A stretch of 64,000 nt of DNA from Alphaproteobacteria bacterium (GTDB lineage: Bacteria; Pseudomonadota; Alphaproteobacteria; RF32; CAG-239). Made by a program: the position numbers and the translations under genes. Location of the stretch: positions 2,033 through 66,032 of the forward strand of contig JAZQXC010000003.1 in NCBI GenBank assembly GCA_045632645.1. The letters run 5' to 3'. Positions 1-49,392 of the stretch are shown here, piece by piece (the first letter of the stretch is position 1; every line of letters begins with the position of its first letter). Below the pieces are notes generated by a model. That model was not told where the DNA came from and searched no databases. It saw nothing but the letters and a program-made list of their open reading frames with translations.

Positions 1-311
1 TGGTCGGCAAAATACATTTGTTTCCCATCAATTTTGCTTGTATTAACAGATTGAGATATTTTATATGAATATTTTTCAAAATCATTAGCTAATGTTTCTA
101 TCATTGTATCTGATAAATCTCCGGTGGAAGTAACATAAGCTTGTAACATATTACCAAAATGCTCAAAATTGCTGGAAGCTTTGGATAAGGATGGCGAATT
201 ATTCAACATTTTTTTTACTACCGGATTATTAAATGCTCTTTCAAAATATCCAGCAATATCATCTAAGCTGAGTTTTTTTATTTCATACATACCACAAACT
301 ATTTTTTCCAT
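1..311 (-). CDS. hypothetical protein, 5' portion; the ORF runs off the left window edge
   Basis: ATG on the minus strand at 311-309 with an open frame to position 1 (>100 codons, MEKIVCGMYEIKKLSLDD...). Absent from the ORF track, presumably because no stop lies in the window. Confidence 0.35.
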   Translation of the reverse strand, partial: MEKIVCGMYEIKKLSLDDIAGYFERAFNNPVVKKMLNNSPSLSKASSNFEHFGNMLQAYVTSTGDLSDTMIETLANDFEKYSYKISQSVNTSKIDGKQMYFAD

Positions 312-710
312 ATTTTGCCTTCATGCTCATTTGTTTATATGATTATACAACATCTTAGAATAATTTGCAATATTTTTAATAGTTAAACATCATAATTTTA
401 ACAGTACGCAGGTGATAACTTTTTTATTGTAAAAATCAAATATTTTTATGTCTAATTTTCGGGGAATATTGTTTTCTGATTTTTTACCATTCTTAAAAAA
501 CACAAAACTAAAATTAAGACATAGGTAGAGATAGACTCTTGGTGTTATTTGGTTATTTTTATTCATCTTATAGAGTTTTTGTGGTTTGTCAAGGTTAATG
601 TATTGAAAATAATGAAAAATATAGGTTGATTTGTTGTTTGTGGAATAGTAACTTCTTTTTGGAAACCTTATTATTTCACCTTATTATTAACCATTTAAAA
701 CTTTAACATT

Positions 711-860
711 ATGCTTACCTCATTTTTGGTTGCTTTAGCTGTTGATGCGGCGACTTTGGGTGTAGTTGTGCTTCTTTCTGATGGGAAAGACCATTCTGAT
801 GGCAAGGTTGCTAACAATCCTTTCTCTGAATGGGAGTTTAATCAGCCATACAATCCTTAG
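711..860 (+). CDS. small hypothetical hydrophobic peptide (49 aa)
   Basis: ATG at 711, stop at 858-860. MLTSFLVALAVDAATLGVVVLL... has a hydrophobic N-terminus. Not in the track. A hairpin terminator lies ~80 nt downstream. Confidence 0.2.
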   Translation: MLTSFLVALAVDAATLGVVVLLSDGKDHSDGKVANNPFSEWEFNQPYNP

Positions 861-940
861 TGATTTTTCTGGTATGCCATTGTTTTGTATTCTAATCCTC
901 AACCCTATTTAATTAGGCTTTGATGGTTGTGTTTGTGGGG

Positions 941-971
941 GCTGATACTATAAAAGTATCAGCCTTTTTTT
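941..971 (+). terminator. rho-independent terminator (9-bp stem GCTGATACT/AGTATCAGC plus T-run)
   Basis: Perfect inverted repeat followed by CTTTTTTT. Confidence 0.55.
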
Positions 972-1065
972 ATGTTTGTATTATTTTTGGTGGTGGTAAA
1001 TTTTGATTGACAACAGCATATTTATTTATAGTATGTGGGTGTTCAACTATTAATATTATATATTT

Positions 1066-1488
1066 ATGAAAGAGTCTTTTGTTTTGATTCCATCAAAAAA
1101 GATTTGTGATGGAGGTCAGTTTAGAGAGTACAGAAAGTTTGTGAAAGCGCAAGCTTCTGGCCAAGATGCTGAAGTTATCAATGTGTGGGCGTTTAATTGT
1201 GACAAAAAAGAAGAAATTGTAGATGTGCTTGCTTCACTTAAATTTTATTACTTTTTTGCTGCGGAGTTTGATGAGAGGAATTTTTCGAACGCTGTAATCG
1301 TTGCTAATTGTCATGCAACCATTTTATCATCGCCTGATGGCTGTAATGTAACTCCTTTGGTCCGTGATATCTTAAGAGGATATGGCATTAATGTTGATGT
1401 GCAGAGTTGCTTTTATATTCCGGTTGATCAGGAAGCTTGGGGTGCTACAGCATTTTTGATTAAAGAGTTTATGACAGCAAAACGTTAA
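1066..1488 (+). CDS. hypothetical protein, member of a local paralog pair (copy A)
   Basis: 140-aa ORF. Motifs SFVLIPSKKICDGG and NCDKKEEIVDVLASL are mirrored in the convergent ORF 1606-2025. Sigma70-like promoter (TTGACA...TATAGT) upstream. Confidence 0.55.
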   Translation: MKESFVLIPSKKICDGGQFREYRKFVKAQASGQDAEVINVWAFNCDKKEEIVDVLASLKFYYFFAAEFDERNFSNAVIVANCHATILSSPDGCNVTPLVRDILRGYGINVDVQSCFYIPVDQEAWGATAFLIKEFMTAKR

Positions 1489-1571
1489 TAGCTCTATTAA
1501 CACCTCGAAAATAGTCTTATTTTAGATTATTTTGGGGTGTTTTTTTATTTTGCATAAATGAATTAAAAAAT

Positions 1572-1607
1572 ACCTCCTAGTTTTGATACTAGGAGGTTTT
1601 AATTTTT
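1572..1607. terminator. bidirectional terminator between the convergent paralogs (10-bp perfect stem ACCTCCTAGT/ACTAGGAGGT)
   Basis: A-run upstream, T-run downstream, perfect 10-bp inverted repeat with 6-nt loop. Confidence 0.65.
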
Positions 1608-2025
1608 ATCCGTTAAAAGTTTCATTTTGGTACTCGATATAACTATCGTAGTTGGAGGTTATACATAGCATATCCTCAATAGGGGCTGAAACTTTACACA
1701 AATTTTGAATTTGCTCATAGAAGTCATCTGTTCGTTTTTGACCACTAGGATTTAGCGCTAGTTGTCCAAAGCACCAGATTGCCCATTTGGCAATGTTGTG
1801 ATTTTGTTCAGTTGGTTCCTTTGCTACTATATCTGAGTAGTCGAGGGCAAGCTTTGTAATTAAATATTTAATCTCGTCCTTTTTTTCGCAACCAACACTC
1901 ATCACAACAATTTCTTCTGTTGTGTTGTCGTTTATTGTTTGTTTGAGCTCGTTTAGAATGTGATAGTAACAACCATTATCCTTCAATTCTTTAGAAGGGA
2001 TAAAAACAAATGATAATAATTTCAT
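1606..2025 (-). CDS. hypothetical protein, paralog copy B of 1066-1488
   Basis: 139 aa. SFVFIPSKELKDNG and GCEKKDEIKYLITKL align with copy A (roughly one third identical by eye). Confidence 0.55.
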   Translation of the reverse strand: MKLLSFVFIPSKELKDNGCYYHILNELKQTINDNTTEEIVVMSVGCEKKDEIKYLITKLALDYSDIVAKEPTEQNHNIAKWAIWCFGQLALNPSGQKRTDDFYEQIQNLCKVSAPIEDMLCITSNYDSYIEYQNETFNG

Positions 2026-2154
2026 AGCTTATAGGGTATATATTTATAATTAGTTTTATAATTAACAAAAAAATATCATTTCATGTGGAATGATATATTG
2101 GTTTTAATATAAGTCAAGCGGTTTTTATTTGAGGTAAAAAGATGGCTAAAAAGA

Positions 2155-2183
2155 TTGACTGAGATGTATTTTTATGGTATAAT
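2155..2183 (+). promoter_or_regulatory. near-consensus sigma70 promoter (TTGACT-N17-TATAAT)
   Basis: Read directly: ttgact gagatgtatttttatgg tataat, 33 nt upstream of the ATG at 2216. Confidence 0.5.
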
Positions 2184-2215
2184 TTCTGTATATGTTGTAT
2201 AAAGGGGGGATTACT

Positions 2216-3748
2216 ATGGGGTGGTTAAATGATAAATTATGTAAATGGGCGATAAAAAGACAGATTAAGAAAATTTCATCTTCTAATTGCAATGAAGATA
2301 CGCTTTCTCAAAGTTATTCGGTTTTGATGAATTATGCAAATAAATATTCGGATAATGAAGAGATATTGTCTGAAGTATATGAAGCATTAGATATTTGTTT
2401 TAAAAGTCCTAAAAATAATAATGACACGTATGATCAGGCTTTATATTTGGTTTCTACTTGTCTTCAAGATAATCCAAAATTTACGCCCTATGTGGCTGAT
2501 GTATATAAAAGAGTGAGCAATGATTATGGTGATACAAATCTTGTATCGTATTTATGCAATTTTTATGATAAATATCCTGAACAAGCCTCTACTGTTGCTA
2601 AATGTATTAAAAATGTATCTGAAAATAATGTAGGTAGCGAAGCATTTTCTAGTGCTAGTATTGGTTTATTGTCCCATATTTCTGATTCTTCTGATATATC
2701 AAATAAATTAAAAGCTTTAGATGCTATGTATGTGGTTGTTGCTAAAGAGGAAAAGGAAAATAAAGGAATTGTGAGTTCTGATAATAATGCACTTCAAATG
2801 AAAGGAGATAGTGTTTCAGCTGTAATTAGTAATGCGCTTAAAGCGGATGATAGTTGCATTTCAGAAGCAATTTGTAGTATTAATGGGATGGATTTAAGTT
2901 CTCCTGAGGTGGCACGTAAAGCACTCGATATTGTTGAAATTGGTTTAGGTAATAAAAATGAAATGACTTTTAATCTTACAATACAGGTGTTAAATAAGAT
3001 AATTGATAAGCATCCTGATTTAGCTAAAGATGTATTTGATGTAGTAAAATCTAGATATGATGAAAATAGATATAATTATGCATCTAATGGTATGTCATCG
3101 GTTTTAATGTCTGTTGGAATGGCTGATAGTTCATTAGCTAAAGAAGTATCTGAAATGGAAAAGGAGCTTCATCCTCGGTGTCCAAATTTTCAATTTGAGG
3201 AAGTTGGTGATGAAATGCTATGTAAGAGTTTTGTTTATAATAAAGATAATTCTTTGCTTAGTACATCATATTGGAAAGATGGGGAGCTTCATGGTCCGTC
3301 TATGTTATATTATGATAATAAGCTTAAGATGGTTGAAAATTATAAAAAAGGAAAAAAAGATGGACTTGAGGTATGTTATAGTGAGGATAATAAAGTTTCC
3401 GGTATAGCGGTTTATAGTAATGATAAGATAACTAATTGGGGGATTGATAGTATTATTACTTCTCAGCCAATTAACGAATTGAATAATGGTTCTTTTTTAC
3501 AAATGCATGAAGGTGGATTTGGGTGTATTTATTCTGATGGAACCCTTATTAATGTAGATGTAAAAAATAAAGCTATTATAATGTTTGAAAAAAATGGTGT
3601 ATCTCATAAATTTTCAGGGCAAGCGGCCTATAATATGATTGAAAAAATCTCTTCTTGTAGCAGTAATGAAGAACGGGTAGATATATTGCATGTATCATGT
3701 CAAAAAATGTTGGATAAACAGTCTATTGTTAAAGATTATGAAAGATGA
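2216..3748 (+). CDS. MORN-repeat (YwqK-family-like) protein with a long helical N-terminal region
   Basis: The C-terminal third carries repeated G-x-x-x-Y-Y/W..NG...G motifs (YWKDGELHGPSMLYYDNKLKMVENYKKGKKDGLEVCY...). Start chosen at the ATG preceded by GGGGGGATTACT. The track ORF begins 24 nt earlier. Confidence 0.6.
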   Translation: MGWLNDKLCKWAIKRQIKKISSSNCNEDTLSQSYSVLMNYANKYSDNEEILSEVYEALDICFKSPKNNNDTYDQALYLVSTCLQDNPKFTPYVADVYKRVSNDYGDTNLVSYLCNFYDKYPEQASTVAKCIKNVSENNVGSEAFSSASIGLLSHISDSSDISNKLKALDAMYVVVAKEEKENKGIVSSDNNALQMKGDSVSAVISNALKADDSCISEAICSINGMDLSSPEVARKALDIVEIGLGNKNEMTFNLTIQVLNKIIDKHPDLAKDVFDVVKSRYDENRYNYASNGMSSVLMSVGMADSSLAKEVSEMEKELHPRCPNFQFEEVGDEMLCKSFVYNKDNSLLSTSYWKDGELHGPSMLYYDNKLKMVENYKKGKKDGLEVCYSEDNKVSGIAVYSNDKITNWGIDSIITSQPINELNNGSFLQMHEGGFGCIYSDGTLINVDVKNKAIIMFEKNGVSHKFSGQAAYNMIEKISSCSSNEERVDILHVSCQKMLDKQSIVKDYER

Positions 3749-3824
3749 TAAAAAATCAAGATAACGATGTATTGGTTTTAGTATATGTTAAAAATTTTTG
3801 ATTTAAGATAGAGGAGGGATTACT

Positions 3825-5810
3825 ATGGTTGATACGCTTAAAGAAGATAAGACCGCAGGTAGCAGTGAAACAAAGAAGAGAGTTCGTCGTAATGTATACG
3901 TGAGGATAGAAAATGGGCATGTTTATCGTGATGTATATGCTGAAAGAATGAATAGAGGCTCAGCAAGATCCCCTGAAATTATGGTAGATTATCAAATTGA
4001 TACGTTAAGTAATAATAGTGGATATGGTGAATATGCTGGATATTATACTCCTAGTAGAAATAGTATTACGATTAATCATGTTGAAGGTGATGAAGATTTT
4101 AATGAACATAGTCAAAGTAATGGGGTGTTGATACATGAACAAAAACACAGAGATAATCAGAATGCTGGTATGTTCGCATATGCGGTATCTGTTGAACAGG
4201 CTTATAAGCTTTGTATGCATGATGAAATTTCTGCTAATATGGCTGAATTAATTTATTTGCGTGATGAATATTTAAAAACTAAAGATTTATCGGTTTTTGA
4301 TTATGATGGGGGATGTTTTAGTTTTTATGTGGATGCGATTAAGAATGGAGAAATAGATCCTTTTAGTGATTCTAAAGAAGATTTTGATAAAGAAATGGCT
4401 CTGATTGTTAATGGAACTCGTGATATGTGGGTTAGAACATATGCTGAATGGTATAGTAGTATTCATGTTAATACTGGAATGTATTATGGTGAAGAAGATG
4501 GTAAACATGCTGAATTTTATGATGAAAACTATGATAGAGCTATGAAAATTGCATATAATATCGGTGGGGTAGATTTTACTCAATATATAGATATATTTGG
4601 AGATGTAAAGGTTCCTTTTACTTCAGTAGATGAAGTTTTAACAGGTGATAGATTAATAGAGGAGATGTCTTTACCTAAATATGATGGTAGTATGAGTTTG
4701 CTTCAATATCAAAAACTTTTGCAACATGCGGATGTTACACCTTTTATGTCTTTCTTGCGTGATCCGATTGTTATTGATGAAAATAAAACAAAAAATGATT
4801 TGGATAATTTGGAGGCAAAAGATGTTGATAGCATACTAGGAGCTGATGATAGAAAAAGTTATATGTATGATAGGGGATTTTATGATGATCAAATGAAAAA
4901 CAGTGAAATGCATTATGATTTTATTGATAAAATAATTATTGATATTGCAAAAGATTATGAGAGAAGAGGGGAAAAACTACCCAAAGATAATGATGAGGCG
5001 TATAATGAAGCAGTTGATAAATTATATAATATAACACTTAGTTTAGATCCAGAATATAAATATACGAGAATAATAAACATAAGAGAAGTATTAAACCCTA
5101 ATGATGAAGTGCCGATGACAGAATTACCTAAAGAAGCGCAAGAAATTCAAGAAAAATTAGAAAATACAGCGTATCGTGTTATGATGAAGTTTAATCCTAA
5201 AAATAATGTTAAGAGCGATGAGAATAATCCTGTAAGGCCTGTAAAAGAGGATAATACACCAGAGTATCGTGAGTGGAGTGAAAGTAGCAGAGTTTCTGAT
5301 GTGCGATATGCTGAATTATTAAATTTAACAGCAGATGTTATTGAGAAACCATTGGATAAACCTGATGAGCTTAGCGGTAGAGTTAGTTTGGGTGATGAAG
5401 AAAATATCAATGGTTGCCCAGATGAAATTAGTGGAAGAAGGCCTAGAGAAAATGGTGTGCCTAGAATACAGAGAGATGTTTTTGATACACCTCGGGTGAC
5501 ACCACGAGGTATTCAAGTTGAAGACGAACGCAGATATAATGAATTTGTAACAGGGGGAGAAACATCAATAATTGATAGAGAAGCCCTAAGAGAAGATATG
5601 CAAACTACAGCGAGAGAAAAGGATAAAAGGATTAAGGTTGTTGAAGGAATGGATCGAGTTAGCGCATCTAATAATAAATCATCTGTTTTGCCTCAAGGGA
5701 ATGATGATGCAAGTAAGACATCTAGTGATGCAGTTGGATATTTGTGTAATAATGATGAGAAAAAAACAAGTGAAGTTGATTCTGCTGTATTATGTGGAAG
5801 AGATAGGTAG
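3825..5810 (+). CDS. large hypothetical protein with an HExxH motif (possible zincin-like metallopeptidase) and a charged, low-complexity C-terminus
   Basis: 661 aa. VLIHEQKHRDNQ (HExxH) near residue 120. The C-terminal ~200 aa is rich in R/E/D/P. No signal peptide. The initiation context GGAGGGATTACTATGG is shared with the upstream gene. Confidence 0.6.
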   Translation: MVDTLKEDKTAGSSETKKRVRRNVYVRIENGHVYRDVYAERMNRGSARSPEIMVDYQIDTLSNNSGYGEYAGYYTPSRNSITINHVEGDEDFNEHSQSNGVLIHEQKHRDNQNAGMFAYAVSVEQAYKLCMHDEISANMAELIYLRDEYLKTKDLSVFDYDGGCFSFYVDAIKNGEIDPFSDSKEDFDKEMALIVNGTRDMWVRTYAEWYSSIHVNTGMYYGEEDGKHAEFYDENYDRAMKIAYNIGGVDFTQYIDIFGDVKVPFTSVDEVLTGDRLIEEMSLPKYDGSMSLLQYQKLLQHADVTPFMSFLRDPIVIDENKTKNDLDNLEAKDVDSILGADDRKSYMYDRGFYDDQMKNSEMHYDFIDKIIIDIAKDYERRGEKLPKDNDEAYNEAVDKLYNITLSLDPEYKYTRIINIREVLNPNDEVPMTELPKEAQEIQEKLENTAYRVMMKFNPKNNVKSDENNPVRPVKEDNTPEYREWSESSRVSDVRYAELLNLTADVIEKPLDKPDELSGRVSLGDEENINGCPDEISGRRPRENGVPRIQRDVFDTPRVTPRGIQVEDERRYNEFVTGGETSIIDREALREDMQTTAREKDKRIKVVEGMDRVSASNNKSSVLPQGNDDASKTSSDAVGYLCNNDEKKTSEVDSAVLCGRDR

Positions 5811-5881
5811 TATTTATTAGTTTGATTTATTTATTTTTATTTCTAATAAGAATTGGCAGTATCGAATAAAAGTGAATGATA

Positions 5882-5906
5882 AAACCCTAGATTTCTCTAG
5901 GGTTTG
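5882..5906 (-). terminator. hairpin plus T-run downstream of the tRNA (minus-strand sense)
   Basis: AAACCCTAGA/TCTAGGGTTT stem. The minus strand reads hairpin then TTTTAT. Confidence 0.5.
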
Positions 5907-5910
5907 AAGG

Positions 5911-5986
5911 TGGTGCCGATTACGTGACTCGAACACGTGACCTGCCCATTACGAATGGGATGCTCTACCAGCTGAGCTAAATCGGC
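5911..5986 (-). tRNA. tRNA-Thr (anticodon CGU), CCA encoded
   Basis: Reverse complement gives GCCGATTTAGCTCAGCTGGTAGAGCATCCCATTCGTAATGGGCAGGTCACGTGTTCGAGTCACGTAATCGGCACCA. It has a 7-bp acceptor stem, GTTCGAGTC T-arm and anticodon loop TTCGTAA. Confidence 0.9.
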
Positions 5987-6053
5987 ATTGTGTTGTTTTT
6001 TAGCAGTTTGTGTTTTATTTTGCAAGATGTTTTTTATTTATTTGCTTTTGTGT

Positions 6054-6422
6054 TTAAAGTTGATCATTTTTTAATTTTGTATATCTTGCTCTGAGTGTAT
6101 CGCTGTATTCTTCTCCAGCTTGATGATAGCCAACATACATTGATAGTGAGAGCAACCATACAAATAAGATTATAGCCATTGTATGGATGCATGTGTAGAA
6201 TGTTTCAAGAAAATCTATTTTTTTATGATGCTTTGTGTATTTTACATTAAATATTGCAACATATATAAATGAGCCAATAAATAGGTTGCGATAGGTGTTT
6301 AATGAAAAAAATATGTTATATATATTTCCTTCGGTTTCATAATTGAGTGTAAATATAGTTAATATTATACCAATCCAGAATAGGGGGTTTCCTATTATAT
6401 TTTTTAATAGTAATTCTTTCAT
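6054..6422 (-). CDS. hypothetical small membrane protein (3-4 TM segments)
   Basis: 122-aa ORF with hydrophobic segments (FWIGIILTIFTL, IGSFIYVAIFNV, AIILFVWLLSLSMYV). Confidence 0.45.
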   Translation of the reverse strand: MKELLLKNIIGNPLFWIGIILTIFTLNYETEGNIYNIFFSLNTYRNLFIGSFIYVAIFNVKYTKHHKKIDFLETFYTCIHTMAIILFVWLLSLSMYVGYHQAGEEYSDTLRARYTKLKNDQL

Positions 6423-6524
6423 TTTTCCTCACAATTTGAGTAAAGTATAGTCTTTAATGGTAAAAAAATACTTTACATATCTTAATTTTAATTATAAAAT
6501 GAGCATAAATTTTGGAGGTTTAAT

Positions 6525-6962
6525 ATGTTTTATCCGAATAGAGAATTTGTTAGTACTTTGAGTGAGGCTGAAAAGTTTATTTTTTTAAAAGTTATTTGTG
6601 GTATGGTGGCAAGTGATAGGCGTGTTAGTAAAAATGAGATTAGATATTTAAGAGAACTAGCTGTACAGTATGGGGTTAGTGCTGATAGTATTTCTGCTAT
6701 GGTTAAATCTTCTGATACTAAGGCTTTGTTGAAGCAAGCTAGAATGATTACAGATAGAAAAAAAGCGCTTACCTTGATTAAAGATTTATGTATGGTTGCA
6801 AATAATGATATTGAACTCGAAGATAAAGAAATTGACTATATTTTAGATGTGGCTGATATTGTTGGGATTGATCCGATTAGGGTTAAAGATATTAATGTTG
6901 TAGTTAGTTCATATTTAGATTGCGAGAAAAATATGAGAAAATTGTTGGAATTGGAAGATTAA
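6525..6962 (+). CDS. TerB-like (tellurite-resistance TerB / DjlA N-terminal domain family) protein
   Basis: 145 aa. Pattern resembles the TerB family: paired helical segments with conserved D/E residues (KNEIRYLRELA ... DKEIDYILDVADI). Confidence 0.5.
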   Translation: MFYPNREFVSTLSEAEKFIFLKVICGMVASDRRVSKNEIRYLRELAVQYGVSADSISAMVKSSDTKALLKQARMITDRKKALTLIKDLCMVANNDIELEDKEIDYILDVADIVGIDPIRVKDINVVVSSYLDCEKNMRKLLELED

Positions 6963-6988
6963 AGTTTAAAGTGAGGTTTAAAGAGCAA

Positions 6989-7717
6989 ATGGCTGAAAGA
7001 ATTGCAAAATTTTTAGCAAGGTGTGGGGTCGCTTCTAGAAGAGAAGCTGAAAATCTTATTAAGCAGGGACGTATTGTTGTTAATGGTGAAGAAGTGTTAT
7101 CTCCTGCTTTTTTAGTTGAAGGTGACGAAGTTATTTTGTTTGATGGTGAGAAAGTTAAGCAAAAAGACAAAACAAGGCTTTGGGTTTATTATAAACCAGT
7201 TGGGCTTGTTACATCGCATAAAGATGAAAAAAATAGAGAGACTGTTTTTAATAATTTACCAGCGGGGCTTCCTCGTGTGATTAGTGTTGGTAGGCTTGAT
7301 CTTAATTCTGAAGGACTTTTGCTATTGACTAATGATGGGGAGCTTTCTCGTCAATTGGAAATGCCTCAAAATGCATGGAGTAGGCGTTATAGAGTTAAAG
7401 TACATGGCTTTTTAAATGAAAAACGTCTTAAAGAAATTGAAAAAGGTGTTATGATTGATGGTGTTCAATATGCACCTTGTAAGGTTGTTGTTGATTCTAA
7501 GCAAGCAACTAATGCTTGGTTAACAATTAGCCTTAATGAGGGGAAAAATCGCGAAATTAGGAAGTTGATGGCGTTTATTGATTTAGATGTGGCTAGACTT
7601 ATTAGAGTTGCTTATGGACCTTTTCAATTAGGTAATTTGAAACCAGGGGAGGTACGTGAAGTACCCCAAAAAGTGCTTAAAGAACAATTAGGAAAGAACG
7701 TTGTGTTATGCGAATAA
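6989..7717 (+). CDS. rRNA pseudouridine synthase (RsuA/RluB family, S4 domain plus catalytic domain)
   Basis: MAERIAKFLARCGVASRREAENLI (S4) and GRLDLNSEGLLLLTNDGEL catalytic motif. Start moved to the ATG at 6989 to avoid overlap with the upstream gene. Confidence 0.85.
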   Translation: MAERIAKFLARCGVASRREAENLIKQGRIVVNGEEVLSPAFLVEGDEVILFDGEKVKQKDKTRLWVYYKPVGLVTSHKDEKNRETVFNNLPAGLPRVISVGRLDLNSEGLLLLTNDGELSRQLEMPQNAWSRRYRVKVHGFLNEKRLKEIEKGVMIDGVQYAPCKVVVDSKQATNAWLTISLNEGKNREIRKLMAFIDLDVARLIRVAYGPFQLGNLKPGEVREVPQKVLKEQLGKNVVLCE

Positions 7718-8256
7718 TCTCTGGCTGTTATAAAGGAAAAAAACTTTTTACTCCTAGCGATGATAGAATTAGACCGACATCTGATAGGGCGCGTGAGGCT
7801 ATTTTTAATATTTTATTTTCTTCCTTAGATAGACCTTTTAGTGAATGTAGAGTTTTAGATGTATTCTCAGGTTCAGGTGCGCTTGGAATAGAGGCTATAT
7901 CTCGTGGTGCTATTGAAGCTTTGTTTGTTGATATTGATTTAAGCTTAACAAAAAAGAATGTTTTAAATGTTGGGGCGAAAAATGTTAGTTTTATTGAGCG
8001 TGATGCGAGAAAGCTACCAACATCTTTGAAAAAATTTGATTTAGTTTTTATGGATGCACCTTATAACAAGGGGTTATCAGAACCATCGCTTAGTAATTTA
8101 CTTGAAAAAGGATACTTAAGCGCTGATGCGATACTTGTTGTGGAAGTTGCGCGTGATGAAGAGCTCGTTTTAAGCGATGAGTTTAGGGTTTTAGATACTA
8201 GAATTTATGGCGCTTGTAAGATTTTGATTTTATCAATTAATCATGGCGAAGCTTAA
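7708..8256 (+). CDS. rsmD: 16S rRNA (guanine966-N2)-methyltransferase RsmD
   Basis: IISGCYKGKKLFTPSDDRIRPTSDRAREAIFNIL ... DVFSGSGALGIEAISRGA ... DAPY. Canonical RsmD motifs. Confidence 0.8.
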   Translation: MRIISGCYKGKKLFTPSDDRIRPTSDRAREAIFNILFSSLDRPFSECRVLDVFSGSGALGIEAISRGAIEALFVDIDLSLTKKNVLNVGAKNVSFIERDARKLPTSLKKFDLVFMDAPYNKGLSEPSLSNLLEKGYLSADAILVVEVARDEELVLSDEFRVLDTRIYGACKILILSINHGEA

Positions 8257-9169
8257 ATACGCCATTTTCATAACCTTGGATAGTTTTGTTTTCTTCTGCC
8301 ATTTCTAGTCTTTTTTCGGCAATGGCAACGTATTCTTTTTCTCGTTCAATACCAACATAGTGGCGACCTAATTTTTTAGCTGTAACAGATGTAGTTCCTG
8401 AACCTAAAAATGGATCAAATACAACGTCTCCCTCGTTGCTTGAAGCTAAAATTAGCTTGGCTATAAGTTTTTCTGGTTTTTGCGTTGGGTGAGGGGTGTT
8501 TTCTGCCATTGACCAAAATGGTATTGATATATCTGTCCATAAATTTGATGGAGCTGTTAGACGATATTTTTTTCCATCATCTTCTTCATCTTCTTGCCAA
8601 TCTTTAGGAACACCTTTTTCATCTTTGTATGGTGCTAGTACTGGGCGTTTTAATTTTACAGCATCTAAGTTAAATGTGTATTCGGGGGATTTGGTAAAAA
8701 ACCATACATCTTCAATACAATTTTTCCAATTATTACCGGCACTTCTTCCTTTTTCGCGTTCCCATGTTATGCGATTTTTTAATAAGAAGTACTTTCCTGC
8801 TATTTCAGGTATTGCAATAGATGTGTTCCAGTCTGAGCAGATGTATAATGTACCATTAGGTTTTAAGGAGATAAATACTTCAGCTAGCCATTTGTCCATC
8901 CATTTTTTGTATTCATTCCAATCCATTGACTTAAATTCTTTTGTGCCAAATTTTTTGGTTAGATTGTATGGAGGGTCTACCACAACTAAGTCTGCAAAGT
9001 TTGCTGGTAAATTCGGCAAAGCATCAAATGTATCTTGATAGATTGTTTTATCTAATATATCGCTTAACTTGGCTTTTTTATCTAAGGTGATTGCACGCGA
9101 AGAGTATGTTTCAATCTCCTCTTCTGATAAGAAGATTGTTTTGTTACGTGGAGCAGGGGTAGTGCTCAT
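8237..9169 (-). CDS. site-specific DNA methyltransferase (N6-adenine/N4-cytosine, beta class; DPPY motif). Solitary, with no adjacent nuclease.
   Basis: VVVDPPYNL motif IV, FDPFLGSGTTSVTAKKLGRHYVGIE motif I (beta order). Its 3' end overlaps rsmD by 20 bp. Confidence 0.85.
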   Translation of the reverse strand: MSTTPAPRNKTIFLSEEEIETYSSRAITLDKKAKLSDILDKTIYQDTFDALPNLPANFADLVVVDPPYNLTKKFGTKEFKSMDWNEYKKWMDKWLAEVFISLKPNGTLYICSDWNTSIAIPEIAGKYFLLKNRITWEREKGRSAGNNWKNCIEDVWFFTKSPEYTFNLDAVKLKRPVLAPYKDEKGVPKDWQEDEEDDGKKYRLTAPSNLWTDISIPFWSMAENTPHPTQKPEKLIAKLILASSNEGDVVFDPFLGSGTTSVTAKKLGRHYVGIEREKEYVAIAEKRLEMAEENKTIQGYENGVFKLRHD

Positions 9170-13963: not shown

Positions 13964-14821
13964 ATGAATTGGCTGACGGATATTGTTCGACCAAAGATTA
14001 AAAAGACTACACCAAAAGAAATTGCTGATGATTTGTGGGTGAAATGTCCAGAATGTGGGCAAATGCTTTTTTCGAAAGAATTAAAGCAAACTCTTTATGT
14101 ATGTACTAAATGTGGTTATCATTTAAGACTTTATGTTGATAAGAGATTAAAGCAATTATTTGATGGTGGCATTTATTCTGAAATGGTATTGCCTCAAGTT
14201 AAAGAGGACCCTCTTAAGTTTAAGGATACTCAAAGATATACAGATAGAATTAAGGTATATCGCAAAAAAACTGGTGGAAATGATGCTATTAAGGTTGGTT
14301 TAGGTAAGGTTGCTGATATTGATAGCGTTGTGGCTGCTATGGACTTTTCATTTATGGGTGGGTCTATGGGAACAGCTGTGGGCGAAGGTATTGTGACAGC
14401 AGCTGAGTATGCTTATGAGCATAATTGTCCTCTTATTATTGCAAGTGCATCAGGTGGTGCTCGTATGCAAGAGGGGATGTTGTCTTTGATGCAAATGGCT
14501 AGAACAACAGCAGCGATTAATCGCTTGAAAGAAAAAGGTTTACCTTATATTTCTATTTTTACTGACCCAACAACTGGTGGTGTTTCAGCGTCATTTGCGA
14601 TGATTGGCGATATTCATATTGCTGAGCGTGGTGCATTGATTGGTTTTGCTGGTAAACGTGTTATTGAGCAAACAATTAGAGAAAAATTGCCTGAAGGTTT
14701 CCAAACAGCTGAATACTTAAAAGAACATGGTATGGTTGATATTGTTGTCGAGCGTAAAGATTTGAAAGAAACTCTTGATAGAGTGCTTTTTATGTTGATG
14801 GCAAATAAAAAAGCTATTTAA
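13964..14821 (+). CDS. accD: acetyl-CoA carboxylase carboxyltransferase beta subunit
   Basis: CPECGQMLFSKELKQTLYVCTKCGYHLRL zinc finger plus carboxyltransferase core. Confidence 0.9.
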   Translation: MNWLTDIVRPKIKKTTPKEIADDLWVKCPECGQMLFSKELKQTLYVCTKCGYHLRLYVDKRLKQLFDGGIYSEMVLPQVKEDPLKFKDTQRYTDRIKVYRKKTGGNDAIKVGLGKVADIDSVVAAMDFSFMGGSMGTAVGEGIVTAAEYAYEHNCPLIIASASGGARMQEGMLSLMQMARTTAAINRLKEKGLPYISIFTDPTTGGVSASFAMIGDIHIAERGALIGFAGKRVIEQTIREKLPEGFQTAEYLKEHGMVDIVVERKDLKETLDRVLFMLMANKKAI

Positions 14822-14948: not shown

Positions 14949-15527
14949 TTAGAATGCGTAGCTTAGGCCGGCAGTCATTTCCATGACGTGGTTAAGATTT
15001 TTCATGCCGACATAAGCGTATCTTCCCATTACACGCATTGATACGTTATGTGTGAAGTCATATGAGAAACCAACACCAGCTCTGTAACCCATGCGTTGTT
15101 TGTCTTCGCTACCAGTTGGTTTAAATTTGTATTTGATATTATAGTCTGCAAGACCAAGTGAGCCTAGTAAATTAAATCCTGAGCACATAACGGGCATTTT
15201 TCCATACATATCTAAACCCCATGCATAGTATTCAGATTTGATTTTTTCTGGCTCGTGATGTGATTTACGCTCACCAGATTGTTGGAAAAAGGCTTCTATG
15301 CTTGTATATTTACCCAAATCAACTCCGAGATTTACTTTCCATGAGCTGTAATCTTTTTTGGCATGTTTTACTTTTGAGCCTTGTTTTAGGTGTGAATAAA
15401 CATAATCAGCACCAATATATGGTCTGTAGTAGTCGTTGGTGTTCCAACTTGTGGCATTTGCGTTTAGAGCAAAAACCGAAACTGCTGCAGCTAATAAACA
15501 AATTTTTTTCATGTGTTTTAACTCCAT
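14949..15527 (-). CDS. outer-membrane beta-barrel protein (Omp25/OmpA-like porin family)
   Basis: Signal peptide MKKICLLAAAVSVFALNANA, alternating amphipathic strands, C-terminal aromatic (…GLSYAF). Confidence 0.7.
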   Translation of the reverse strand: MELKHMKKICLLAAAVSVFALNANATSWNTNDYYRPYIGADYVYSHLKQGSKVKHAKKDYSSWKVNLGVDLGKYTSIEAFFQQSGERKSHHEPEKIKSEYYAWGLDMYGKMPVMCSGFNLLGSLGLADYNIKYKFKPTGSEDKQRMGYRAGVGFSYDFTHNVSMRVMGRYAYVGMKNLNHVMEMTAGLSYAF

Positions 15528-42838: not shown

Positions 42839-43885
42839 ATGAGTATTAAACCAGCAAAAATCCAATTTAATGGTGGGGAAATTAGCCCATGGTTAGATGC
42901 GAGGTATGATATTGCAAAATTTGATAAGAGTGCAAAATTGTGTCGTAATTTTATACCACTTATTGAAGGGAGTATTAAAAGAAGAGGGGGCTCTAGATTT
43001 GTGGCTAGATGCTTAAATGATGATGGGGTTACATTTAGTATTAATCCTTATCCAAGCGAAGCTGAAGTTATTATTGATGGGGAAAAAAGAAATAATATAA
43101 AAGTGGCTAGAGGGGAGTATGTTAGCTTTGAACTTAAGATGGTGGGATATGCACCGTATAGTGGGAAAATATTAGTTAATGATGATTTATGTATTGATGT
43201 AAAACTTGTTTCTAATAGTGAAAAAAGGATATTGAAAATTATTTCTAATCCTATTGATGCAATTATTAAAATTGATGGGTATGAACGAAATGAGGGGGAA
43301 TTTGCGAAAAATTCTGAAGTTTTTTATATTGTGTATAAAGATGGGTATATTATGAAGTCTGGTAATGTGATACTTAGCGAGGATATGGAGCTTTATATTG
43401 AATTAGAAAAAGACGAGGAAGTTGTTGGAGGGGAGAGTGTTTTTGGTGACTGGGGAAGACCTGTTGGATTGATTAGTTGTAGTGCTGTTGGATATATTGA
43501 AAAGCAATATAAATGTTTTTTATTAAGATTCGAAAATGGTTATTTGCCGGTAATATTTAATGCCAATGAAAATGTTCCAAATAAAATTGATGAAACTCTT
43601 TTTTGTTATGAAAATGTTGATGGATATGATGCTGTTGTTTATAAAGGTGGCAAGTATGTTTTGTGTTATATGGAACAGGGAAGCGAAGCTTTGTATTATA
43701 AATTGCTTGATGGGACACTGATTTATGCTGTTGATTTTTTAACTCAAAAAGCTGTTGGTTGGCAAGTGAATGATGATGGAAAATATGCATCATATTATGC
43801 CAATTATGATGGGCATGTTTCTGGTAATGCTGTTAAGGTTTATTATAAAGGTAATTTGATTTGGGAATTGAAGGGGAGAAATTAA
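42839..43885 (+). CDS. phage-region hypothetical protein (beta-rich; possible tail or receptor-binding component)
   Basis: AAGGAG RBS. 348 aa. First gene after promoter/terminator unit 1. Confidence 0.5.
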   Translation: MSIKPAKIQFNGGEISPWLDARYDIAKFDKSAKLCRNFIPLIEGSIKRRGGSRFVARCLNDDGVTFSINPYPSEAEVIIDGEKRNNIKVARGEYVSFELKMVGYAPYSGKILVNDDLCIDVKLVSNSEKRILKIISNPIDAIIKIDGYERNEGEFAKNSEVFYIVYKDGYIMKSGNVILSEDMELYIELEKDEEVVGGESVFGDWGRPVGLISCSAVGYIEKQYKCFLLRFENGYLPVIFNANENVPNKIDETLFCYENVDGYDAVVYKGGKYVLCYMEQGSEALYYKLLDGTLIYAVDFLTQKAVGWQVNDDGKYASYYANYDGHVSGNAVKVYYKGNLIWELKGRN

Positions 43886-43886
43886 T

Positions 43887-46037: not shown

Positions 46038-46059
46038 GGAGTTTTGAAAGGAGTATATA

Positions 46060-47370
46060 ATGGTGAAAGGTTTAACTAATGCTAGAGTTGTTTTGGATGT
46101 GGCGTCTGGCTCTGGTGGTGATAAGGTTTGGGCGTTAAAGGGATTTGGTGCACCTAAAAACAAAGGCGATAAGGTCTTTATAAGAAAAAATCTTAAAGGC
46201 GATTTGATGCCGATTACGAATTTTGCTGACCCTAGTGCTACTTCTGCATATTGTAAAAATGATGGTTCGGTTATTGCACATTTAACTTCTAACAGTTTTA
46301 TGTTATATGATTTGGCTTATGGTACTACATATAGTGATGGAATGTTACTTGGTAAACCAACAGAAAGCAGGCAATATCATAGAACTAAAAGACTTGGTGA
46401 TAAAGTTGTTTTTTATTCAGATTCAGATGTTAGTGATGGAACAACACACGATATAATTGCTGGAAAGACAACGATTGTAGAAATATATGGCAAGTTTTTA
46501 AGAGAAGATTTGGTTTTACAATATGTTTCTGATAATAATTTTAAGCTTCAGAGATATGATATAGATACTAACACTTATGGAGAAGATTTAGGCAGTATTA
46601 ATATAGGTGAAGGTAGTAATGTTTATTATGTTGCTGATGTTGTATTAGATGGAAATATACTTCTTGTTGGAAAAAGAAGAAAAAGTTATGCCGAATATTG
46701 GTCTTGTTTTTATGATGTTAGTGATTTGCATAATCCGATACTATTAAATAAAACTAAGATGATTTCGGAGTCTAAGATATATTGTGCGACAGGATTGAGA
46801 GTTGGAGAGTATATCATTACAAGAGGCTCATCTCACCTTGATACATATACTAAGGACACAACACATATATATCAAATTAAAGAAAACTATACACTTGGTA
46901 GTGCTGATAATATAAATGATGAAATTGTTTATTTGTTATCTGGTGTATCAACTGTGTGTTATAATGAAGAAAATAAAATTTTATCTATTGGTGGTAATTT
47001 CTTTAAGTATGAAGATGGTAAGTTTAATCGAATTAGAATTGGGTATGGGATGCTTGCAACAAATGTAACAACCCTTCCTAGTGCTTTTATATTATCTGAA
47101 AATTTAGAAACGTCTGCTAGGATTTTTACTTATAAAGCGTCATCATCTAACGTCAAACGATTAAATGTATATAGACAAGCTGATCTAGATGCAAATTGGT
47201 TTACAACAAGCGATATGATATCTGATGTTTTTACTGGAATATATACAGGTAGAACAGATGAAAATGATAGGGTTGAGGTAGAGTCTATTTTACCTGCTAA
47301 AGTTAACCTAACTGTTGTAACAGATGTTGATGTTAGTGATGGTGAAATTATATTTGAGGGGGTAGCGTAA
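46060..47370 (+). CDS. phage tail-fibre-like protein (436 aa)
   Basis: Thr/Ser/Gly/Asn-rich, beta-rich. Couples to the next gene (ATGA overlap). Confidence 0.45.
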   Translation: MVKGLTNARVVLDVASGSGGDKVWALKGFGAPKNKGDKVFIRKNLKGDLMPITNFADPSATSAYCKNDGSVIAHLTSNSFMLYDLAYGTTYSDGMLLGKPTESRQYHRTKRLGDKVVFYSDSDVSDGTTHDIIAGKTTIVEIYGKFLREDLVLQYVSDNNFKLQRYDIDTNTYGEDLGSINIGEGSNVYYVADVVLDGNILLVGKRRKSYAEYWSCFYDVSDLHNPILLNKTKMISESKIYCATGLRVGEYIITRGSSHLDTYTKDTTHIYQIKENYTLGSADNINDEIVYLLSGVSTVCYNEENKILSIGGNFFKYEDGKFNRIRIGYGMLATNVTTLPSAFILSENLETSARIFTYKASSSNVKRLNVYRQADLDANWFTTSDMISDVFTGIYTGRTDENDRVEVESILPAKVNLTVVTDVDVSDGEIIFEGVA

Positions 47371-48947: not shown

Positions 48948-48963
48948 ATGATAGAGTGATGAT

Positions 48964-48982: not shown

Positions 48983-48987
48983 ATTTT

Positions 48988-49380: not shown

Positions 49381-49392
49381 TGGGAGTTTTTT

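What the first reader, a model, noticed from the sequence alone, without database searches (positions are those of the whole stretch)
1..5986. tRNA-Thr-adjacent accessory cluster: convergent paralog pair, MORN/YwqK protein and HExxH protein sharing an identical initiation context
The 3' end of the minus-strand tRNA-Thr faces a block of genes with no housekeeping identity. The block has two ~140-aa paralogs in tail-to-tail orientation with a perfect 10-bp bidirectional terminator between them. Next is a 510-aa protein whose C-terminus is MORN/YwqK-type repeats; in Bacillus this family is the YwqK immunity/antitoxin of deaminase toxins. Last is a 661-aa HExxH protein with a disordered basic/acidic tail. 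The last two genes share the 13-nt initiation context GGGATTACTATGG. tRNA 3' ends are classical island integration sites. The contents resemble an effector/immunity (polymorphic-toxin-like) island more than metabolism.
Basis: partly seen in the sequence, partly recalled or inferred. Interest (0 to 1): 0.6.

Follow-up and report, generated by a model that had tools for sequence, protein, structure and literature searches.

The report
Variable orphan-gene block beside tRNA-Thr
Next to a threonine tRNA gene of an uncultured low-GC gut alphaproteobacterium lies a fast-changing set of lineage-specific genes; its main gene encodes a previously undescribed, probably zinc-dependent protease whose central part is swapped between strains and species, but the block is neither a classical tRNA-inserted island nor a toxin/immunity locus.

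Summary
The sequence features are real: tRNA-Thr(CGT), two convergent 140-aa paralogs, a bidirectional terminator, a 510-aa protein with weak MORN-like repeats, a 661-aa HExxH protein and the shared 13-mer. The island/toxin-immunity reading is not supported as stated. Composition is typical. The window has no integrase or tRNA repeat. In a sister species a 47-nt copy of the tRNA 3' end plus an integrase lies between the HExxH gene and the tRNA, so the tRNA is a true att site but the block is outside that element. MORN_2 is below threshold, and the MORN-like gene is absent from relatives that keep the HExxH gene. The HExxH protein belongs to a large family with no direct Pfam match (385 clusters), seen only in gut/rumen alphaproteobacterial MAGs. 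H104, E105, H108 and E134 are invariant, suggesting a gluzincin-like site, and distant members touch DUF6782. Its central ~1-1.4 kb is hyper-polymorphic within species, and one allele is shared across species. The 13-mer is the 3' edge of a ~130-bp duplicated parB/HExxH control region flanking the MORN-like gene. A protease role is inferred; a secreted or conflict role is speculative.

The parts
1..311 (-). 5' part (103 codons) of an unidentified gene that runs off the left edge of the window
   Evidence: Translation. No family hit at a meaningful E-value. No relative found in JGI metagenome contigs.
360..454 (.). Upstream region of the left-edge gene. It is homologous to a ~90-bp direct repeat that flanks a 299-aa orphan gene in sister species L007.
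   Evidence: blastn gives 80-81% identity to L007 3-91 and 1067-1158; alignment A5.
711..860 (+). Conserved small ORF (49 aa) with an N-terminal hydrophobic segment and the C-terminal motif DHSDGKVANNPFSEWEFNQPYNP
   Evidence: Identical protein in L048 and 55-65% identity in L007/L051. Called as a gene in L001, L048 and L051. Kyte-Doolittle hydropathy 2.35 over residues 1-25.
937..967 (+). Intrinsic-terminator-like hairpin (13 bp) after the small ORF
   Evidence: -17.9 kcal/mol, z -5.1.
1066..1488 (+). parA: 140-aa orphan protein, paralog of parB
   Evidence: 31% identity over 91 aa, E 8e-10. Present in L048 (98.6% aa). Replaced by a 131/153-aa membrane protein gene in L007/L051.
1572..1597 (.). 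Bidirectional intrinsic terminator between the convergent paralogs
   Evidence: The same stem is conserved downstream of parB in L007.
1606..2025 (-). parB: 139-aa orphan protein with 4 Cys invariant across the family; soluble
   Evidence: Purifying selection (pN/pS 0.17-0.28). The AlphaFold model is unusable (pLDDT 53).
2094..2219 (+). R1: full copy of the divergent parB/HExxH control region. It holds a parB promoter-like site (2117->2090), a strong sigma-70-like promoter TTGACT-17-TATAAT with TG (2155-2183), the Shine-Dalgarno sequence GGGGGG, and the start ATG at 2216. In this genome it drives the MORN-like gene.
   Evidence: Promoter scan (best site in 7 kb, 11 of 12). Alignments A4 and A7 against L048, L007 and L051.
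2216..3748 (+). 510-aa orphan protein with a helical-looking N-terminal part and three weak MORN_2-like 22-aa units (nt 3230-3295, 3299-3364, 3365-3430). It was inserted between the control region and the HExxH gene.
   Evidence: 98.6% aa identity in L048. Absent in L007/L051/L052. Its only other homolog (L049, 46% aa) has a different upstream region.
3764..3828 (+). R2: second, short copy of the control region. It keeps the 5' ~42 nt and the 3' 21 nt (SD plus ATTACTATGG), and the central ~65 nt with the promoter is missing.
   Evidence: In strain L048 the same position holds a full 131-bp copy, 98.5% identical to R1. No promoter-like or terminator-like site lies between 3640 and 3988.
3825..5810 (+). 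661-aa member of a clade-restricted family with no direct Pfam match. It is a putative gluzincin-type zinc metallopeptidase (HEQKH at nt 4134-4148; invariant E134 at nt 4224-4226) with a disordered N-terminus and tail (from nt 5358).
4017..5100 (+). Recombinant, hyper-polymorphic core of the HExxH gene. It is 88-99% nt identical to sister species L007, while the gene ends and neighbours are 35-87% identical.
5882..5905 (+). 10-bp hairpin between the HExxH stop codon and the tRNA 3' end; a likely terminator
   Evidence: fold of 5811-5912.
5911..5986 (-). tRNA-Thr(CGT). Its 3' 47 nt (5911-5957) equal the att repeat found next to an integrase in L007. The site is unoccupied here.

Best explanation
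The 6 kb to the left of tRNA-Thr(CGT) is a chromosomal plasticity zone of an uncultured, ~32% GC gut alphaproteobacterium. It is not a self-contained tRNA island and not a toxin/immunity locus.

Shown:
(1) The anchor gene (3825-5810) belongs to a large, clade-restricted family with no direct Pfam match. Its HExxH motif and a Glu 26 residues later, on the next predicted helix, are invariant.
(2) The gene is a recombination mosaic. Its central ~1-1.4 kb exists as very different alleles within one species, and one allele class is shared between species, while both gene ends and the neighbours follow the species.
(3) The MORN-like orphan gene sits between two copies of the ~130-bp divergent parB/HExxH control region, and relatives without that gene have one copy. 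In this genome the second copy lacks the promoter segment.
(4) The tRNA's 3' 47 nt is an att site used by an integrase element in a sister species, on the tRNA side of the HExxH gene.

Inferred:
- The HExxH protein is a soluble zinc metallopeptidase made from a strong sigma-70 promoter.
- In this genome it is co-transcribed with the MORN-like gene.
- Its polymorphism reflects diversifying or frequency-dependent selection from an external partner (host, competitor or phage), not a housekeeping role.
- The MORN-like gene and the parA/parB paralogs are recently recruited orphans with no demonstrated link to the protease.
For: Family and active site. There are 260 homologs by k-mer/HMMER search and 385 clusters at 50% identity at E<=1e-3. 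41 loci lie in species-representative genomes, nearly all titled as gut or rumen Alphaproteobacteria MAGs. H104, E105, H108, E134, R146, Y149, Y168, Y210 and G248 are invariant in 44 members down to 21% identity. The AlphaFold model is confident for residues 50-510. It shows three strands, then a helix at 99-113 carrying HExxH, then a helix at 123-152 carrying E134. 3 of 44 members hit Pfam DUF6782, 'putative metallopeptidase' (best E 8.8e-6), and single members hit MPTase-PolyVal and Peptidase_M78 weakly. The best BFVD fold hit is an IrrE-like domain (prob 0.44).

Mosaic structure.
- Codons 1-64: window vs L048 99.5% nt, window vs L007 56.8%.
- Codons 65-263: all three pairs 93-94%.
- Window vs L007, residues 129-428: pS 0.015 against 0.69 in parB.
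- L007 vs conspecific L051: flanks 95-100% nt, central HExxH 69-86%.
- pN/pS is 2.4-3.6 in the zincin domain among the close alleles (P about 0.04 each), and 9 codons have three states in three sequences.
- The same mosaic appears in L017 vs L018.

Duplication.

att site. Typical composition. The family is absent from IMG/VR and from plasmids.
Against: - The excess of non-synonymous changes is only marginally significant, and the two comparisons share the window sequence. Very recent divergence inflates dN/dS.
- Elsewhere in the family dN/dS is 0.12-0.33.
- It is unresolved whether the MORN-like gene was gained in the window lineage or lost in L007.
- The left boundary of the block lies outside the window, so an old, decayed island cannot be excluded.
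- The window allele lacks a hydrophobic middle segment and ~29 codons of a conserved C-terminal domain found in relatives, so it might be partly degenerate.
- No secretion system or signal was identified.
Confidence: 0.6

Rival explanations
1. First reader's reading. The block is a genomic island integrated at the 3' end of tRNA-Thr. It carries a polymorphic-toxin-like effector (the HExxH protein), a YwqK/MORN-type immunity protein and paralogous accessory or immunity genes.
For: The tRNA-Thr 3' end is a proven att site in a sister species. All four proteins are lineage-specific. The HExxH gene is hyper-polymorphic with cross-species allele exchange. MORN_2-like units are visible. YwqK domains are reported among T6SS-related effector proteins in one paper (PMC7970981).
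Against: - In L007 the integrase element sits between the HExxH gene and the tRNA, so the block is outside it.
- The window has no integrase or att repeat, and its composition is typical.
- The HExxH family is present across 41 species of the clade in many chromosomal contexts.
- There is no trafficking domain, no modular C-terminal toxin and no downstream immunity gene.
- The MORN-like gene is upstream, below threshold, and absent where the HExxH gene persists.
- The allele swaps do not include any neighbouring gene.
Confidence: 0.08
2. The block is an old, decayed island (or tandem island array) at tRNA-Thr whose integrase and distal att site have been lost or lie beyond the window. On this view the L007 element is simply a newer arrival that pushed the block away from the tRNA.
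For: - Tandem accretion at tRNA sites would give exactly the L007 layout: block, att fragment, new element, tRNA.
- Gene content turns over quickly. parA, the MORN-like gene, the L007 145-aa, 153-aa and 299-aa genes, and the L055 arrangement all differ.
- The ortholog of the HExxH gene sits elsewhere (between accD and an OMP gene) in L009/L030, while accD and the OMP gene are adjacent in the window.
- Several family members lie next to other tRNAs.
Against: Codon use and GC are indistinguishable from the rest of the window. There is no tRNA-fragment repeat in 64 kb here, nor near other family members. The family is absent from phage, virome and plasmid collections apart from two mislabelled bacterial contigs. 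More distant family members also lie near the TerB-RluB-RsmD genes (L046, L047) or directly after a TerB-like gene (L027, L028, L041).
Confidence: 0.17
3. The HExxH protein is an intracellular conflict or regulatory protease. It would be either an abortive-infection or anti-phage sensor-effector (Lit-like), or an ImmA/IrrE-type protease that cleaves a repressor. Its polymorphism would then be driven by phage.
For: - The weak similarities point to M78/IrrE-like zincins and to Abi_C.
- The protein has no signal peptide or transmembrane segment.
- The locus is hyper-variable, sits in a variable region beside an att site, and a prophage-like cluster lies in the same window.
- Lit and ImmA/IrrE are HExxH proteases (my own knowledge, not tested here).
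Against: There is no PADLOC hit. No HTH repressor gene is adjacent. The family is near-universal in the clade and often multi-copy, with a consensus constitutive-type promoter, unlike sporadic defence genes. It is not found on phages or plasmids.
Confidence: 0.15

Closest known systems
Pfam PF20573 (DUF6782, putative metallopeptidase family)
   Same: Both carry an HExxH motif. 3 of 44 diverse family members match it, best E 8.8e-6. It is the only curated family that any member reaches with a small E-value.
   Different: The window protein and 41 of 44 members do not match. This family is 400-950 aa, with a large extra helical domain, a conserved PxYxEW...RVSxVQ motif and a conserved C-terminal domain. 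No literature on DUF6782 was found.
Peptidase_M78 / ImmA-IrrE zincins (PF06114)
   Same: The HExxH-to-Glu spacing of 26 residues and the predicted order of strands, HExxH helix and Glu helix resemble it. The best (non-significant) fold hit is an IrrE N-terminal-like viral protein. One member hits PF06114 at E 0.054.
   Different: No significant sequence or fold match. There is no partner HTH repressor gene. This family is much larger, chromosomal and clade-wide rather than linked to mobile elements.
Polymorphic toxin systems (toxin plus cognate immunity cassettes)
   Same: Extreme within-species polymorphism and exchange of allelic segments by recombination. The locus lies among orphan genes.
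   Different: The variable part is the central catalytic and helical region, not a C-terminal toxin module. There is no N-terminal trafficking domain, no downstream immunity gene and no co-varying neighbour.
YwqK / MORN_2 repeat proteins (PF07661)
   Same: Three consecutive 22-aa units fit the Y-x-x-G...Y-K-x-G-K-K-D-G pattern. E is 0.008 for the C-terminal fragment alone.
   Different: The score is 16.7 bits against a cut-off of 29.6. There is a 340-aa unrelated N-terminal region and no adjacent deaminase or nuclease toxin. The gene is dispensable in relatives that keep the HExxH gene.
tRNA-targeting tyrosine-integrase islands
   Same: In sister species L007, the 3' 47 nt of tRNA-Thr(CGT), from the anticodon loop to the 3' end, is duplicated next to a PF00589 integrase (E 4e-32).
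   Different: In the window the site is empty, and the studied block lies on the far side of the att fragment, outside the element.

Membership tests
tRNA-integrated genomic island | Integrase gene inside the block | tested here: not met
   No integrase ORF or Pfam hit in 1-5910. The region to the left of the window is not visible.
tRNA-integrated genomic island | Direct repeat of the tRNA 3' end bounding the block | tested here: not met
   blastn-short of the tRNA against all 64 kb finds nothing of 15 nt or more. A repeat beyond the left edge cannot be tested.
tRNA-integrated genomic island | The tRNA is used as an attachment site in relatives | tested here: met
   L007 5409-5455 matches the tRNA 3' 47 nt at 46/47, and an integrase follows at 5610-6860. 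That element lies between the HExxH gene and the tRNA.
tRNA-integrated genomic island | Atypical base composition or codon usage | tested here: not met
   z-scores for GC, GC3 and synonymous codon fit lie within about +/-1.6 of 43 reference genes, except parB GC3 at z 2.4.
tRNA-integrated genomic island | Presence/absence of the whole block among close relatives with conserved flanks | tested here: inconclusive
   The block is present in L048 (97.7% nt). It is partly different in L007/L051/L052 and in L055. All of these contigs are too short to show both flanks.
Polymorphic toxin / immunity system | N-terminal secretion or trafficking domain (RHS, PAAR, LXG, FHA, WXG and similar) | tested here: not met
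   No Pfam or NCBIfam hit in the window protein or in 27 and 44 family members.
Polymorphic toxin / immunity system | Conserved N-terminal region with a swappable C-terminal toxin domain | tested here: not met
   Both ends of the gene follow the species and the centre is swapped. The C-terminal domain is conserved across the family.
Polymorphic toxin / immunity system | Cognate immunity gene immediately downstream that co-varies with the toxin | tested here: not met
   The tRNA lies downstream. The MORN-like gene is upstream and is absent in L007/L051/L052. Neighbours do not co-vary with the HExxH alleles.
YwqK / MORN_2 (PF07661) | Score at or above the Pfam gathering threshold | tested here: not met
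   12.9 bits for the whole protein and 16.7 bits for the C-terminal fragment, against a cut-off of 29.6. No NCBIfam family at E<=1 beyond noise.
Zincin (gluzincin) metallopeptidase | Invariant HExxH on a helix | tested here: met
   H104, E105 and H108 are invariant in 44 members and lie in the predicted helix 99-113, pLDDT about 95.
Zincin (gluzincin) metallopeptidase | Third zinc ligand (Glu) on the following helix | tested here: met
   E134 is invariant and lies in the predicted helix 123-152. Its geometry in the model could not be inspected.
Zincin (gluzincin) metallopeptidase | Zincin fold confirmed by structural comparison | tested here: inconclusive
Zincin (gluzincin) metallopeptidase | Zinc binding and peptidase activity | not testable with these tools
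   Needs biochemistry.
ImmA/IrrE (M78) regulatory protease | PF06114 match and an adjacent HTH (ImmR-type) repressor gene | tested here: not met
   1 of 44 members hits at E 0.054. No HTH gene neighbours the HExxH gene here or in the loci examined.

The most novel reading that the evidence does not exclude
The HExxH family is a clade-wide arsenal of non-Sec-secreted effector metalloproteases of uncultured gut and rumen Alphaproteobacteria. These proteins would be strongly expressed and would sometimes sit beside ankyrin-repeat or LRR-like genes. Their catalytic core would be kept hyper-polymorphic by host, competitor or phage pressure and traded across species by recombination with breakpoints inside the gene. 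In addition, orphan genes would be recruited into such highly expressed units by insertions that duplicate the resident promoter, 5' UTR and start region. This is seen twice in this 6-kb region: R1-MORN-R2-HExxH here and in L048, and the 90-bp repeats around the 299-aa gene in L007. That would be a general route for capturing new genes.
Probability: 0.2. Interest if true: 0.65.

Novelty: new variant of a known kind. Interest (0 to 1): 0.42.

Why it matters
Gut and rumen Alphaproteobacteria of this kind are known almost only from MAGs, and their interaction biology is unexplored. A family of several hundred sequence clusters has an invariant zinc-protease signature, no curated annotation for most of its members and no solved or detectable structural relative. 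Its alleles are more similar between species than between strains. Such a family is a concrete candidate for an interaction factor (effector, antigen or defence protein) in these organisms, and it would merit a new family definition. The locus also explains a puzzling 'identical initiation context': it is the scar of a control-region duplication that placed an orphan gene under a strong resident promoter. This shows how new genes can gain expression. For genome scanning, the case shows that a position next to a tRNA 3' end, and even a proven att site, does not by itself make the adjacent genes island cargo.

Tried and rejected
- Exact-protein look-ups of the window's own proteins found no contig, so the left flank could not be fetched.
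- A JGI metagenome scan with the left-edge gene found nothing.
- PDB sequence searches with two family profiles gave no hit.
- PADLOC and PHROGs on all block proteins gave noise only.
- IMG/VR and plasmid searches for the HExxH family were negative. Two 'Bacteriophage sp.' hits turned out to be bacterial contigs with the usual OMP-HExxH-UvrD context.
- An apparent MORN-like stretch fused to the HExxH homolog of L050 was not confirmed by Pfam.
- The AlphaFold model of the parB family had pLDDT 53, so no fold search was attempted.
- hhalign of the parA/parB profile against 15 small-protein families that neighbour HExxH genes elsewhere found no relation.
- There is no homology between the MORN-like and HExxH proteins, which rejects a diverged tandem gene duplicate.
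- The R repeat occurs nowhere else in the window or in the fetched loci.
- No partial tRNA repeats lie near family members that sit next to other tRNAs.
- The idea that the accD-OMP spacer in the window keeps a remnant of a deleted HExxH promoter is too weakly supported by alignment to claim.
- Ancestral linkage of HExxH to TerB-RluB-RsmD was weakened, because L046 and L047 belong to a distant paralog clade.

Full report
OBSERVATION

The window is ~32% GC with a strong positive GC skew. ARAGORN and Rfam place one tRNA, tRNA-Thr(CGT), at 5911-5986 on the minus strand, so its 3' end faces lower coordinates. To its left lie the following features.
- A gene start at 311 (minus strand) that runs off the window.
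- A conserved 49-aa ORF (711-860) followed by a strong hairpin terminator at 937-967.
- Two convergent ORFs, 1066-1488 (+) and 1606-2025 (-). They are true paralogs (31% identity over 91 aa, E 8e-10) and share four invariant cysteines.
- A perfect 10-bp stem with an A-run and a T-run at 1572-1597 between them. It is scored as a terminator on both strands (z -5 to -6) and is conserved with parB in a sister species.
- An ORF at 2192/2216-3748.
- An ORF at 3825-5810 with HEQKH at residues 104-108.

GGGATTACTATGG occurs exactly twice in 64 kb, at both start sites, against 0.01 expected. The sequence-level observation is therefore confirmed. The one weak element is the 'MORN/YwqK' label. Three 22-aa units at nt 3230-3430 fit the pattern by eye, but Pfam MORN_2 gives 12.9-16.7 bits against a cut-off of 29.6.

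ORGANISM AND GENE DISTRIBUTION

The 661-aa protein has 260 homologs in the 5.8-billion-protein collection. None has a Pfam domain that belongs to the family, and the few named ones are 'hypothetical protein [Alphaproteobacteria bacterium]'. A genome scan found 41 loci in species-representative genomes. Nearly all are MAGs from human, ruminant or other animal guts titled Alphaproteobacteria. A few are titled otherwise but share the same neighbours, so they are probably mis-binned. An exhaustive profile search finds 385 clusters at 50% identity.

The other genes of the block are near-orphans. The 510-aa protein has one homolog cluster (46% identity), and parB has three (94, 75 and 70%). No block protein matches NCBIfam, PADLOC or PHROGs meaningfully.

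IS IT A tRNA ISLAND?

Three results bear on this.

(a) Composition. GC, GC3 and synonymous codon usage of the block genes fall inside the distribution of 43 other genes of the window.

(b) The att site. The closest species-level relative is L007 (identical to L001, GCA_045633945.1; HExxH protein 74-77% identical). It carries, 516 bp after its HExxH gene, a 46/47 copy of the 3' 47 nt of this tRNA-Thr, running from the anticodon loop to the 3' end. A tyrosine integrase follows directly (PF00589, E 4e-32). ARAGORN finds no intact tRNA on that contig. The fragment is therefore the distal att repeat of an element that extends from the integrase towards the intact tRNA. However, the HExxH gene, parB and the small ORF lie outside that element. 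In the window the site is empty, and no second copy of the tRNA 3' end exists anywhere in the 64 kb.

(c) Context across relatives. A 97.7%-identical strain (L048) has the same order: small ORF, parA, parB, MORN-like gene, HExxH gene. L007 and its conspecifics L051/L052 lack both the MORN-like gene and parA, and have a membrane-protein gene instead of parA. In a more distant genome (L002/L009) the ortholog sits between accD and an OMP gene. Those two genes are adjacent in the window (13964-14821 and 14949-15527). In L009 the tRNA-Thr 3' flank holds four unrelated small genes. Across the family there are at least seven conserved contexts, with tandem or dispersed paralogs in some genomes.

The region is thus a variable zone, but nothing here marks it as an integrase-delimited island. 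An old, decayed island with its far end beyond the window cannot be excluded.

WHAT THE HExxH PROTEIN IS

In 44 members down to 21% identity, the invariant residues are H104, E105, H108, E134, R146, Y149, Y168, Y210 and G248. AlphaFold, given a 27-sequence alignment, produces a confident model for residues 50-510 (pLDDT mostly 80-95). It shows three beta strands (51-59, 72-75, 80-84), a helix at 99-113 carrying HExxH, a long helix at 123-152 carrying E134, and then an all-helical domain. Residues 1-48 and most of 512-661 are disordered. This order of sheet, HExxH helix and a Glu on the next helix 26 residues later is the gluzincin arrangement. That comparison rests on established knowledge of zincins, and the geometry of the model could not be inspected.

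Direct similarity is thin.
- There is no PDB sequence hit and no significant Foldseek hit.
- The best viral-structure hit is an IrrE N-terminal-like domain at prob 0.44.
- 3 of 44 members reach Pfam DUF6782 ('putative metallopeptidase', best E 8.8e-6), and single members touch MPTase-PolyVal and Peptidase_M78.

The protein has no signal peptide or transmembrane segment. Orthologs carry a consensus sigma-70-type promoter with an extended -10 (TTGACx-17-TGGTATAAT) about 35 nt before the start. I conclude that it is a new, clade-restricted branch of zincin-like putative metallopeptidases. Activity is inferred, not shown.

HYPER-POLYMORPHISM AND ALLELE EXCHANGE

Window against L007 is 88-99% nt identical over window 4100-5100, but only 35-87% identical in the rest of the gene and its flanks. 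Synonymous divergence is 0.015 in residues 129-428, against 0.3-0.5 at the gene ends and 0.69 in the adjacent parB.

In codons 1-64 the window and its conspecific L048 are 99.5% identical, while L007 is 57% identical to both. In codons 65-263 all three pairs are 93-94% identical. The reverse holds inside the L007 species. L007 and L051 are 95-100% identical in the flanks and at both gene ends, yet only 69-86% identical over the central ~1.4 kb, with pN/pS of 0.4-0.8. L017 against L018 shows the same kind of mosaic in another clade.

Among the three closely related core alleles, 35 of 40 variable codons are non-synonymous, and nine codons carry three different amino acids (65, 70, 112, 176, 209, 213, 216, 217, 220). 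pN/pS is 2.4-3.6 (binomial P about 0.04 for each comparison; the pooled 0.004 is not independent). Family-wide dN/dS (0.12-0.33) is several-fold above that of neighbouring housekeeping genes (0.01-0.10).

The central part of the gene therefore behaves as an exchangeable, highly polymorphic allele with breakpoints inside the gene. No neighbouring gene co-varies with it. This argues against a self-toxic toxin that needs a cognate immunity gene. It favours selection by an external partner. Which partner is unknown.

THE SHARED 13-MER EXPLAINED

In L048 the 131 bp upstream of the HExxH start are 98.5% identical to the 131 bp upstream of the MORN-like gene (window 2089-2219). That segment is the whole divergent control region between parB and the downstream gene. 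It contains a parB promoter-like site (2117->2090), the best promoter-like site in the first 7 kb (2155-2183, 11 of 12, with TG), the Shine-Dalgarno sequence and the start.

L007, L051 and L052 have no MORN-like gene. They have one copy of this region between parB and the HExxH gene.

In the window the second copy (3764-3828) keeps only its 5' ~42 nt and its 3' 21 nt. The ~65 nt that hold the promoter are missing. No promoter-like or terminator-like site is predicted in the 76-bp gap. The structure is R-MORN-R-HExxH. This is what a single crossover with a circular R-MORN molecule, or unequal exchange between R copies, would produce. Recombination between the R copies would regenerate the L007 state, so the direction (gain here or loss there) is unresolved. 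The consequence here is that the HExxH gene has most likely become the second gene of a MORN-HExxH transcript (inferred).

The MORN-like and HExxH proteins are unrelated. The only other MORN-like homolog (L049) has a different upstream region and an in-frame stop codon. A second instance of the same pattern exists in L007: ~90-bp direct repeats reaching up to the ATG flank a 299-aa orphan gene, while the window has a single copy at 360-454.

TOXIN/IMMUNITY TEST

The defining features of polymorphic toxin systems were tested and not met.
- There is no trafficking domain.
- There is no modular C-terminal toxin.
- There is no downstream, co-varying immunity gene.
- YwqK/MORN_2 membership fails the curated threshold, and the MORN-like gene is dispensable where the HExxH gene persists.
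- parA and parB show purifying selection (pN/pS 0.15-0.28) but have no detectable relatives or partners, and their model is unusable. Their function is unknown. The four invariant Cys suggest a metal or disulfide site (speculative).

VERDICT

The region is accessory, variable and next to a real att site. However, the block is outside the one element seen, is compositionally native, and lacks toxin/immunity architecture.

The most interesting content is a family of putative zinc metallopeptidases, without curated annotation for most of its members, that has a hyper-polymorphic core exchanged across species. The promoter-duplication scar that explains the identical start contexts is also of interest. 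Interest is moderate (0.42), and the novelty class is a new variant of a known kind (zincin-like peptidases).

Noticed in passing
window 42839-52379: A cluster of phage structural and packaging genes lies on the + strand. It includes a tail protein phrog_376 split over 42839-43885 and 43887-46037 (E 1e-139), a large terminase at 49393-50691, and a T7-type portal / head-tail connector at 50745-52379 (PF12236, E 5e-98). Host malQ follows at 53962-56217. This is a podovirus-like prophage or remnant. Integrase and att sites were not searched for.
   Followed up: partly
window 711-967: A conserved 49-aa ORF has a hydrophobic N-terminus and a strongly conserved C-terminal motif (DHSDGKVANNP[FY]SEW[ED]FNQPYNP), followed by a strong terminator. 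The protein is identical in L048, 55-65% identical in L007/L051, and called as a gene in several assemblies. It may be a small secreted or membrane peptide.
   Followed up: partly
L007 3-91 and 1067-1158; window 360-454: In the sister species, ~90-bp direct repeats that extend up to the start codon flank a 299-aa orphan gene. The window has one copy. This is the same 'orphan gene between two copies of a control region' pattern as R1-MORN-R2.
   Followed up: partly
L012 12030-12105; L031 11965-12052; L034 11915-12002; L029 9777-9853; L017/L018/L019: Family members in other genomes also sit within ~100-900 bp of tRNA genes of different identity: Trp and Ser-GCT downstream and convergent, Met upstream. 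No partial tRNA repeats were found nearby. Whether this exceeds chance was not tested.
   Followed up: partly
L027, L028, L041 (directly upstream); window 6525-6962; L046, L047: A TerB-domain protein gene is the immediate upstream neighbour of the HExxH gene in three deep-branching loci, and lies within 0.7-3 kb of it in three others. This may be recurring linkage or old synteny. Its meaning is unknown.
   Followed up: no
window 5662-5713 vs L007 4658-4796; alignment A1 columns 520-590: The window's HExxH allele has an in-frame loss of ~29 codons in the conserved C-terminal domain (YDKFGDNAY...NFAQ). Like L007, it also lacks the hydrophobic GxGxGAP segment present in most family members. This may be partial degeneration or a clade-specific architecture.
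   Followed up: partly
L050 (MT838386.1) and MT836799.1: Two GenBank records labelled 'UNVERIFIED: Bacteriophage sp.', from human faeces, matched the HExxH family. The one inspected, L050, carries a family member in the usual bacterial context (DUF3078-like OMP, HExxH, UvrD). It looks like alphaproteobacterial chromosomal DNA, not phage. MT836799.1 was not inspected.
   Followed up: partly
L008 8863-9645 and neighbours; L020/L024/L025/L026 upstream genes: In some genomes HExxH genes are flanked by ankyrin-repeat proteins (Ank_2, E 2e-23) or by 510-606-aa proteins with a weak LRR-like C-terminus. This hints that these loci collect eukaryote-like interaction genes.
   Followed up: no
L049 490-1839: The only other homolog of the MORN-like protein (46% aa) carries an in-frame stop codon inside the MORN-like region and has an unrelated upstream sequence. 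It is a possible pseudogene or an assembly error.
   Followed up: no
window 6054-9169 vs L002/L009 1-4169: The segment tRNA-Thr / 122-aa membrane protein / TerB / RluB (/RsmD) is inverted relative to the N6_N4 methyltransferase-HPr-EIIA block when the window is compared with L009. So the tRNA-Thr 3' flank abuts different DNA in the two genomes.
   Followed up: partly
family C-termini (alignment A1): Most members of the window's clade end in a short basic motif (...GRDR...IKER...EHSR...ARGR...AKSR). This could be a non-Sec export signal. It was not tested.
   Followed up: no
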